DNA of 63,163 bases from Candidatus Micrarchaeota archaeon. Lineage in GTDB: Archaea; Micrarchaeota; Micrarchaeia; Micrarchaeales; CABMGC01. Position 1 is the stretch's first letter. Every line of letters begins with the position of its first letter. The position numbers and the translations under genes were made by a program. Under the pieces are notes generated by a model, which saw nothing but the letters and a program-made list of their open reading frames with translations, ran no database searches and was not told the DNA's origin. The stretch lies in NCBI GenBank assembly GCA_028867435.1, contig JAGWGI010000004.1, positions 1 to 63,163 of the forward strand, written 5' to 3'. Shown here piece after piece: positions 9,524 to 28,431 of this stretch.

Positions 9524-9808
9524 GTGATTAAAATGCAGTTAGACCAAAAATTTGTGAACAAAATCGGATGGATTGCATCGGTAACTGCCATATTGCTGTA
9601 TTTTTCATATATTGACCAGATACGGCTCAATCTCTCAGGCCATCCAGGGTCGGTATTGCTGCCGATAGTCACAATATTCAATTGCTGCTTTTGGGTGGCG
9701 TACGGCTTCCTTCTCGAGAAGAGGAACTGGCCACTAATCGCATGCAATCTTCCTGGGATATTTTTTGGTGCAATCACTGCAATAACGGCAATACTTGGAA
9801 CAATATAA
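9524..9808 (+). CDS. SemiSWEET (MtN3/PQ-loop) transporter
   Basis: Three TM helices; SYIDQI, NCCFWVAYG, NWPLIACNLPG pattern. Confidence 0.8.
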   Translation: MIKMQLDQKFVNKIGWIASVTAILLYFSYIDQIRLNLSGHPGSVLLPIVTIFNCCFWVAYGFLLEKRNWPLIACNLPGIFFGAITAITAILGTI

Positions 9809-9862
9809 CCCAAGCAAACTACTGAAATGATTATAAAGGTAGTAACGCAAAGGTAATACCAT

Positions 9863-9986
9863 GCCAGGGTGGCGGAATCCGGTAACGCGCCGGTCTTGAG
9901 TTTACTCAAGAGCTGATCCTCGGAGATGATGCGACAAGCAAACCGGTTCCCTTACGGGATTTAGGGTTCAAATCCCTACCCTGGCG
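9863..9986 (+). tRNA. tRNA-Ser(TGA) with a 40-nt intron (9901-9940) at position 37/38
   Basis: GCCAGGG/CCCTGGC acceptor, G73, long variable arm TCCC-TTAC-GGGA, anticodon arm CCGGT-CT TGA G^A-ACCGG; CTTG/CAAG central helix of a bulge-helix-bulge. Confidence 0.92.
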
Positions 9987-10003
9987 AATCTTTAACCCCC
10001 ACA

Positions 10004-10058
10004 ATCCTACATGTCCCTGCATTTGCTTCAAAAGTGGTATCTGCAGGGACGAAAGGAT
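10004..10058. repeat. Inverted repeat / hairpin between convergent tRNA-Ser and the Cys-rich gene
   Basis: GTCCCTGCA (10013-10021) / TGCAGGGAC (10042-10050) plus outer ATCCT/AGGAT. Confidence 0.6.
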
Positions 10059-28376: not shown

Positions 28377-28431
28377 TCAGACCGCCTATCAATCGTCACA
28401 GCAAAAGCTCAGCGATTACCTCTGTCATCAC
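28377..28431 (-). ncRNA. Box C/D methylation-guide sRNA
   Basis: GTGATGA (C) - 12 nt - CTGA (D') - GCTTTTGCT - GTGACGA (C') - 12 nt - CTGA (D), with canonical archaeal spacing. Confidence 0.85.

What the first reader, a model, noticed from the sequence alone, without database searches (positions are those of the whole stretch)
9863..9986. tRNA-Ser(UGA) intron appears to encode a half box C/D guide aimed at its own wobble U34
Seen: the 40-nt intron (9901-9940) contains ACTCAAGA (9904-9911), then G, a perfect D box CTGA (9913-9916), a mini-stem TCC-TC-GGA and a C-like box GATGATG (9925-9931), i.e. a K-loop-type D'/C' unit. ACTCAAGA is the exact complement of TCTTGAGT (9894-9901), the anticodon loop plus the first intron base. 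The fifth base upstream of the D box (A9908) pairs with T9897, which is U34. Established: C/D guides methylate the base paired to N+5, and the euryarchaeal pre-tRNA-Trp intron guides Cm34/Um39 in this way. Inference: this is a much smaller, single-guide version on a different tRNA. The guide duplex competes with the splice helix (CTTG with CAAG 9935-9938), so it could act as a methylate-then-splice switch, or the excised intron circle could act in trans. I do not know of this being described for tRNA-Ser.
Basis: partly seen in the sequence, partly recalled or inferred. Interest (0 to 1): 0.88.

Follow-up and report, generated by a model that had tools for sequence, protein, structure and literature searches.

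The report
Self-targeting half guide in tRNA-Ser intron
The short intron of a serine tRNA in this tiny archaeon (Micrarchaeota) carries a conserved stretch that pairs with the tRNA's own anticodon, next to a single protein-binding kink; it most likely directs a methyl mark onto the first anticodon base before the intron is cut out, a stripped-down form of a trick proven so far for one tRNA.

Summary
Confirmed. The tRNA-Ser(UGA) gene (9863-9986) has a 40-nt intron carrying guide, box D (CUGA), a loop and box C' (UGAUG). The fifth base before box D pairs with U34. The module is in 57 of 60 relatives, and no intron-less gene turned up in 247 genomes of the two families. Across 166 distinct copies the boxes and the pairs to 31-33 and 35 are kept while linkers vary. 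In Ser(CGA) genes the wobble partner switches A to G in 54 of 64. Met and Trp introns use the same register. The duplex is only 6-7 bp and its linker folds as a hairpin, favouring action in cis before splicing over an excised circle. Against: no biochemical data; an engineered one-box guide methylated non-specifically; 10 CGA genes mismatch; Nop5 here lacks its fibrillarin-binding domain. Best reading (0.62): a single-kink, self-targeting box C/D guide for Um34. It is a new variant of the tRNA-Trp intron guide, not found in my literature searches. The scan noted this family before on other DNA (e1-7114378).

The parts
9863..9986 (+). pre-tRNA-Ser(UGA) gene with a canonical 37/38 intron
   Evidence: Rfam RF00005, 46.9 bits; ARAGORN intron call; identity read from the sequence
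9863..9900 (+). 5' exon, positions 1-37
   Evidence: sequence
9894..9900 (+). target strand U31-G37; U34 = 9897 is the predicted 2'-O-methylation site; 9895-9898 is also the 5' strand of the splice helix
9901..9940 (+). 40-nt intron (31-50 nt in relatives)
9901..9904 (+). loop of the target-guide hairpin; variable linker in relatives, usually extending the hairpin
9905..9911 (+). guide; conserved core 9906-9911 pairs with 36-31; A9908 = N+5 opposite U34
9912..9912 (+). N+1 G, not paired to the target, pairs with C9932
9913..9916 (+). box D (CUGA)
   Evidence: 165 of 166 copies, GUGA in 1
9917..9924 (+). 2-bp cap with CUCG tetraloop closing the kink; a plain short loop (K-loop) in most relatives
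9925..9932 (+). 3-nt kink bulge (9925-9927) and box C' (RUGAUGC, 9926-9932)
   Evidence: RUGAUG in 165 of 166 copies
9935..9941 (+). 3' strand of the bulge-helix-bulge helix (9935-9938) and 3' bulge (9939-9941) with the 3' splice site after 9940
   Evidence: sequence; C32-G pair in 166 of 166
9941..9986 (+). 3' exon, position 38 to discriminator G73, with long variable arm
   Evidence: sequence

Best explanation
The intron is a single-kink-turn box C/D guide that acts on its own pre-tRNA. SHOWN by sequence and comparison: the guide can fold back on U31-A36 as a hairpin, box D follows after one spacer base, box D and box C' form a kink-turn/K-loop, and the fifth guide base faces position 34. 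INFERRED from known box C/D biochemistry: L7Ae binds the kink, Nop5 binds the L7Ae-RNA complex, fibrillarin adds a 2'-O-methyl to U34 (C34 in CGA copies). INFERRED from folding energies: positions 32-35 must then leave the guide and pair with the intron 3' end to form the bulge-helix-bulge that the splicing endonuclease cuts, so methylation comes before splicing. How fibrillarin is recruited by a Nop5 without its N-terminal domain is unexplained.
For: Conservation: 57 of 60 relatives; pattern in 75 of 82 and 90 of 94 genomes of the two families against 4 of 223 in other orders and 7 reversed-control hits in 401; no intron-less Ser(UGA) gene in 247 genomes of those families. Fixed register in 166 distinct copies while linker (5-13 nt), loop (4-12) and tail (5-18) vary. 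N+5 tracks the wobble base: A in all 57 distinct UGA copies found without using the guide pattern, G in 54 of 64 CGA genes; the splice-helix partner of C34 pairs in only 20 of 55. One copy (G447) swaps both kink-stem pairs. Same N+5 = C34 register in 30 of 30 tRNA-Met introns and, with an in-register NNGA box, in 24 of 30 tRNA-Trp introns. For cis: at most 7 contiguous pairs with mature tRNA in 137 of 166 copies, against the nine-pair criterion of PMC6009581 and a 10-pair stand-alone Leu(CAA) guide in this genome; real linkers give a more stable hairpin than shuffled ones in 143 of 166. An engineered RNA of the same layout binds L7Ae, Nop5 and fibrillarin and is methylated (PMC1635284). Fibrillarin, Nop5, L7Ae and endonuclease genes are in the genome.
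Against: No RNA or biochemical data. In PMC1635284 the one-box complex was not site-specific and both box pairs were needed for specificity. The natural tRNA-Trp intron guide was found to act in trans (review passages). 10 of 64 CGA genes have a C34-A mismatch at N+5. The gene tree forces only 3-4 independent changes; the sign test gives p 0.25. Nop5 residue 20 aligns to Pyrococcus residue 124, and the fibrillarin-binding domain is residues 1-123 (PMC7962484); that domain's Pfam model found nothing in this 93.7% complete genome, though it rang in only 2 of 14 control genomes. Most Ser(CGA) genes of the order, this genome's included, lack the guide (63 of 248 genomes have it).
Confidence: 0.62

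Rival explanations
1. Same chemistry in trans: the excised (circular) intron, or the intron of a second pre-tRNA, guides Nm34, as shown for the tRNA-Trp intron. Circularised, the intron has the topology of a single-domain C-guide-D RNA.
For: Trans action of the Trp intron (review passages). Covariation with the isoacceptor fits trans action too. A-type guides in CGA introns could still serve tRNA-Ser(UGA). Small one-domain guides work in eukaryotes (passage; abstract).
Against: At most 7 pairs with mature tRNA in 137 of 166 copies; the C-to-D distance in the circle ranges 16-35 nt; in the pre-tRNA the guide is predicted to be taken up by its own target; linkers extend the cis hairpin.
Confidence: 0.13
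2. Non-catalytic role: L7Ae and the shortened Nop5 bind the kink and hairpin to fold, protect or delay splicing of the pre-tRNA; the guide layout is kept for protein binding, not for methyl transfer.
For: Nop5 lacks the fibrillarin-binding domain across the class and so matches Prp31 in extent. N+5 mismatches occur only where the hairpin is extended (9 of 22 against 0 of 33), as if stability mattered more than the target pair. Hairpin and splice folds lie within 3 kcal/mol in 118 of 166 copies.
Against: Fibrillarin is kept in 41 of 41 class genomes and sits beside Nop5 in the two loci inspected. Three tRNAs with different anticodons put position 34 at N+5. No UGA copy has G at N+5 although G-U would keep the hairpin (0 of 111). 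Stand-alone two-box guides in this genome also aim at N+5 sites.
Confidence: 0.14
3. Loose methylation guide: the one-box particle methylates one or more riboses among positions 32-35, not only 34.
For: Non-specific methylation and only partial loss on a position-5 mismatch by the engineered one-box complex (PMC1635284); tolerated C34-A mismatches.
Against: The spacer is invariant in 166 copies; a SpoU/TrmJ-family gene that could serve position 32 is present (assignment recalled, not tested).
Confidence: 0.08
4. Neutral relic: an inverted copy of the anticodon loop or a decayed sRNA, conserved only by descent or by splice-site needs.
For: Kin are not independent; few independent changes are proven.
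Against: Boxes and guide core invariant while flanking intron parts change in length and sequence; double compensatory swap in G447; the guide pairs with C34 more often than the splice helix does (46 against 20 of 55).
Confidence: 0.03

Closest known systems
Box C/D guide in the euryarchaeal pre-tRNA-Trp intron (Haloferax volcanii; Pyrococcus sR50)
   Same: Guide inside a 37/38 tRNA intron, aimed at position 34 of the host tRNA by the N+5 rule (review passages, PMC7994747 and PMC4090602; the primary papers were not read).
   Different: About 65 nt or more with two box pairs and two targets (C34, U39), acting in trans. Here 31-50 nt, one box pair, one 6-7-bp guide, tRNA-Ser, probably in cis.
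Engineered hemi-RNA of Hardin and Batey 2006 (PMC1635284)
   Same: Target joined to guide by a short loop, followed by a single C/D kink; assembles L7Ae, Nop5 and fibrillarin and is methylated.
   Different: Synthetic and not site-specific; here natural, built into a pre-tRNA whose anticodon stem holds the target end, with a fixed N+5 register.
Nanoarchaeum equitans tRNA-Met intron (PMC3491384)
   Same: DPANN tRNA intron with box D and a box C variant, proposed as a guide.
   Different: 66 nt, tRNA-Met; the passages read name no target or cis hairpin. The figure could not be seen.
Stand-alone archaeal C/D sRNAs for wobble positions (Pyrobaculum sR26/27/45/46, PMC6009581; Sulfolobus U34 of tRNA-Gln, PMC7668247)
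   Same: 2'-O-methylation of C34 or U34 guided by N+5.
   Different: Separate genes, two box pairs, nine or more pairs, in trans.
Single-domain eukaryotic C/D RNAs (minimal Drosophila guide as cited in PMC7994747; mouse tiny SNORDs, bioRxiv 10.64898/2026.07.28.740266, abstract only)
   Same: One kink and one guide suffice for methylation.
   Different: Order C-guide-D closed by a terminal stem, trans-acting, eukaryotic proteins; here guide-D-loop-C' inside the substrate.

Membership tests
archaeal box C/D methylation guide sRNA | box D (CUGA) and box C (RUGAUGA-like) forming a kink-turn or K-loop | tested here: met
   CUGA 165 and RUGAUG 165 of 166; stem pairs kept, one double swap
archaeal box C/D methylation guide sRNA | two box pairs (C/D and C'/D') on one RNA | tested here: not met
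   One pair only in the window intron and none further seen in the printed introns
archaeal box C/D methylation guide sRNA | antisense element of nine or more Watson-Crick pairs | tested here: not met
   6 conserved pairs; 9 contiguous pairs (G-U allowed) with mature tRNA in 4 of 166; criterion from PMC6009581
archaeal box C/D methylation guide sRNA | target paired to the fifth base before box D, Watson-Crick | tested here: met
   111 of 111 UGA and 46 of 55 CGA distinct copies
archaeal box C/D methylation guide sRNA | L7Ae, Nop5 and fibrillarin encoded and complete | tested here: inconclusive
   All three present; Nop5 lacks the fibrillarin-binding domain
archaeal box C/D methylation guide sRNA | binds L7Ae and directs 2'-O-methylation | not testable with these tools
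   needs bench work
pre-tRNA-Trp intron guide (sR50 type) | guide nested in the 37/38 intron, aimed at host position 34 | tested here: met
pre-tRNA-Trp intron guide (sR50 type) | tRNA-Trp host, two guides (34 and 39), sequence homology | tested here: not met
   Ser host, one guide; no Rfam sRNA match at E up to 10 in 9800-10050
archaeal bulge-helix-bulge tRNA intron | 4-bp helix between two 3-nt bulges at 37/38 and a splicing endonuclease | tested here: met
   4 of 4 helix pairs in the window; 3 or 4 pairs in 162 of 166 copies; 383-aa endonuclease, best hit 4fz2 at E 1e-156

The most novel reading that the evidence does not exclude
Micrarchaeales run a minimal methylation particle: one kink-turn, a 6-bp self-hairpin inside the substrate and a Nop5 without its fibrillarin-docking domain, achieving site-specific wobble methylation in cis, with the hairpin-to-splice-helix refolding acting as a checkpoint that holds splicing until methylation is done.
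Probability: 0.3. Interest if true: 0.85.

Novelty: new variant of a known kind. Interest (0 to 1): 0.68.

Why it matters
Most archaeal tRNA introns have no known job; the one proven guide intron (tRNA-Trp) is a full two-box RNA acting in trans. In vitro work concluded that archaeal guides need two box pairs for site specificity. A natural one-box, self-targeting guide kept across two families would be a direct test of that rule, would give a reason for keeping the intron, and would show how a reduced genome replaces a separate sRNA gene with about 25 bases. It can be tested with short transcripts and recombinant proteins, and the named complete genome ARM-1 (AP024486.1, L096), a cultivated strain according to the abstract of PMC8784108, carries it.

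Tried and rejected
Relaxed ARAGORN scan: flooded with false calls, not used. Stand-alone sRNA for Ser position 34 in the class: 35 of 191 genomes, no family enriched, three hits are the intron itself; not found in those searched, and none in this genome. Same module in Lys/Leu/Gln/Ile U34 tRNAs of the class: 9 of 191 genomes against 6 control hits, none tRNA-like by eye; the wider claim in earlier notes was not reproduced here with this pattern. Off-tRNA pattern hits L202-L209 checked as possible free guides: no flanking boxes, chance. Five genomes without the pattern showed no diverged copy and four of the order's searches no intron-less one; probably unassembled. RNA runs for L096: no RNA holder listed. 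Complex prediction for Nop5 with fibrillarin: tool not available. Separate Nop5 N-terminal gene: none by PF21572, none obvious between the two genes in two loci; the homolog search returned only short forms, so no profile of that domain could be built. Gene tree too poorly resolved to count origins. Sigma-70 promoter scan uninformative for an archaeon. One search was out of frame and not used. The first parse misplaced the boxes in about nine rows; guide, box, energy and linker figures are from the corrected, splice-helix figures (unaffected).

Full report
Observation. The gene is a tRNA-Ser(UGA) with a 40-nt intron at 9901-9940 whose ends form a bulge-helix-bulge: C32-G35 (9895-9898) with 9935-9938, bulges 9899-9901 and 9939-9941. 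A9908 is the fifth base before box D and faces U34. None of 2,000,000 shuffles of the intron reproduced guide, box D and box C' together. Two details need correction: the eighth guide pair and the TCC-TC-GGA stem would each close a 2-nt loop. The foldable forms are a 7-bp hairpin and a 2-bp cap with a CUCG loop. Rfam has no sRNA match here. The flanking genes (MtN3-like transporter upstream, unassigned ORFs downstream) show no link to the element.

Lineage. Named records carrying the element are titled Micrarchaeota, Micrarchaeia, Micrarchaeales or Micrarchaeaceae in nearly all cases. A DNA search found a full-length intron-bearing gene in 58 of 61 genomes of the order, own genome included. 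A target-plus-guide pattern matched 75 of 82 genomes of the own family, 90 of 94 of the sister family, 0 of 1 of a third family and 4 of 223 in other orders, with 7 hits of the reversed control in 401. Three of those four outside hits were checked and are not tRNAs, as is the only hit in G126. A search for Ser(UGA) genes with no intron or one under 25 nt found only G037, the third family, plus one chance hit, in 248 genomes. In 80 mostly other-order genomes the Ser(UGA/CGA) genes that the pattern caught were intron-less or had introns without the module. The intron is therefore a fixed trait of two families.

Anatomy across copies. I parsed 228 loci into 166 distinct anticodon-arm-plus-intron sequences, 111 UGA and 55 CGA. 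Part of the UGA set was selected by a pattern containing the guide; the 57 distinct UGA copies found by DNA similarity alone show the same picture. Pairs N+2 to N+4 are Watson-Crick in 166 of 166, N+6 in 165 (one G-U), N+7 in 155, N+8 in 77. Box D is CUGA in 165, box C' RUGAUG in 165, and the base before D pairs with the base after C' in all 166. The exception, G447, changes both stem pairs together. The spacer is always one base, while linker, loop and tail vary in length. G003 and G050 are marked unpublished; they supply loci L005, L009, L061, L244 and L267 and rows in the tallies, and no conclusion rests on them alone.

Covariation with the wobble base. A survey not conditioned on the guide found 67 matches in 248 genomes; I dropped 3 as non-tRNA by eye, leaving 64 Ser(CGA) genes in 63 genomes, all with the module. 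N+5 is G in 54 and A in 10. In UGA genes it is always A, never the G that would give a G-U pair. The splice-helix partner of C34 pairs in only 20 of 55 distinct CGA copies, so the guide tracks position 34 more closely than the splice site does. Limits: a gene tree with these positions masked is poorly resolved, forces only 3-4 changes on supported branches and gives 3 independent pairs (on average 2.5 the same way, 0 opposite, p 0.25). The nine distinct mismatched copies all have the hairpin extended at position 37 (9 of 22 against 0 of 33; kin not independent).

Sister introns. The best 30 of 45 tRNA-Met matches all have guide, one spacer base, an NNGA box, a GC stem-loop and a C'-like box, with N+5 opposite C34. 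The best 30 of 36 tRNA-Trp matches have a conserved guide between two kink modules in D-then-C order; 24 have an NNGA box in the N+5 = C34 register (counted by eye). Other introns of this genome (Tyr, Ile-UAU, Ser-CGA, Ser-GCU, Leu-UAA) show no such module by inspection. A pattern for Lys, Leu, Gln and Ile U34 tRNAs gave only chance-level hits in 191 class genomes.

Cis or trans. With mature tRNA the guide makes at most 7 contiguous pairs in 137 of 166 copies, below the nine used to accept a trans target (PMC6009581, section read). A stand-alone two-box sRNA candidate in this genome makes 10 pairs with tRNA-Leu(CAA), N+5 at C34. Real linkers stabilise the cis hairpin more than shuffled ones in 143 of 166 (mean -7.0 against -5.2 kcal/mol). 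In a circle the C-to-D distance would range 16-35 nt. Hairpin and splice folds exclude each other; the hairpin is favoured in 133 of 166, median -1.6 kcal/mol, -17.1 against -14.9 for the window. These energies ignore kink-turn and protein contributions.

Machinery. Fibrillarin, Nop5, L7Ae and a 383-aa endonuclease are encoded; the endonuclease's best solved relative is 4fz2 (recalled as the ARMAN-2 epsilon-2 enzyme, whose tolerance of relaxed motifs is described in passages of PMC12397907). Nop5 is 271 aa and its residue 20 aligns to Pyrococcus residue 124; the fibrillarin-binding domain there is 1-123 (PMC7962484 passages). The short start is class-wide: in 120 of 120 listed homologs the conserved motif lies a median 54 residues from the start. 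Fibrillarin is kept in 41 of 41 class genomes.

Mechanism. Most likely (0.62): L7Ae binds the kink, Nop5 and fibrillarin load, U34 is 2'-O-methylated in the self-hairpin, the RNA refolds to the splice helix and is cut. The pairing layout is shown by comparison; binding, methylation and order are inferred. Methylation aimed at 34 in either mode is about 0.75. The closest experiment is the engineered hemi-RNA of PMC1635284 (abstract and Results read): same layout, active, only partly sensitive to a position-5 mismatch, but not site-specific. That both supports feasibility and warns that specificity needs an extra anchor; the anticodon stem next to the duplex could supply it (inference).

Literature. 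Searches. None listed a paper on a guide in a tRNA-Ser intron or in Micrarchaeota tRNA introns; the term 'C D box' scored zero in every listed paper, so that search is weak. Passages read: PMC7994747, PMC3491384, PMC7668247, PMC4090602, PMC3218864, PMC6009581, PMC7962484, PMC12397907. PMC3239211 had no occurrence of Ser, box C, methylation or snoRNA in its main text. The tiny-SNORD preprint was seen as abstract only, PMC8784108 as a search listing. The primary Trp-intron papers were not read (PMC92551 not held). No supplements were read; those of PMC3239211 or tRNA databases may list these introns, and subscription journals are not covered.

Earlier scan notes. e1-7114378 describes this family on another genome, and several notes describe like modules in other tRNAs; I saw them after my own conservation tests. 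They are unchecked AI notes and add no support.

Verdict. Real, conserved and not chance. It works like the tRNA-Trp intron guide but fails two defining features of archaeal C/D sRNAs (two box pairs, nine-pair guide), so it is a new variant of a known kind. Interest 0.68.

Noticed in passing
window 28377-28431, - strand: Candidate two-box C/D sRNA. Its D guide makes up to 11 contiguous pairs (G-U allowed) with the 16S decoding region in 2 of 5 relatives' rRNAs, N+5 on the C recalled as the C1402 equivalent. This genome's 16S is not assembled.
   Followed up: partly
G000:C33:16047-16095 +: Candidate two-box C/D sRNA whose D guide makes 10 pairs with tRNA-Leu(CAA) on C15, N+5 at C34; no target found for its D' guide.
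   Followed up: partly
L072:509-1324 - (G000:C13): Nop5 lacks almost the whole fibrillarin-binding N-terminal domain, as do its class-wide homologs.
   Followed up: partly
L195 (G000:C14:6855-6975 +): tRNA-Met(CAU) intron with the same single-kink half guide aimed at C34, in 30 of 30 loci examined.
   Followed up: yes
L196 (G000:C23:52820-52962 -): tRNA-Trp intron with two kink modules in D-then-C order and one conserved guide between them, a permuted two-box, one-target layout; the second module decays in several relatives.
   Followed up: partly
L198 (G000:C44:1165-1252 +): tRNA-Ile with a UAU anticodon and a 13-nt intron, miscalled Ser by ARAGORN.
   Followed up: no
L199, L200, L201, G000:C40 near 40075 and G000:C15 near 2555: Non-canonical introns: Ser(CGA) in the anticodon stem, Ser(GCU) and Leu(UAA) in the D arm, Leu(CAA) in the T arm, Ser(GGA) apparently with two introns.
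   Followed up: no
L301 (G447:C65:4896-4957 -): Ser(CGA) intron with both kink-stem pairs swapped, a natural double compensatory change.
   Followed up: yes
L071:30-620 +: Partial ORF near fibrillarin that looks like the C-terminal part of the RtcB tRNA ligase (motifs recalled, not tested).
   Followed up: no
L146 and loci titled Marsarchaeota: Contigs with these titles carry the Micrarchaeales-type gene; likely mislabelled or mis-binned records.
   Followed up: no
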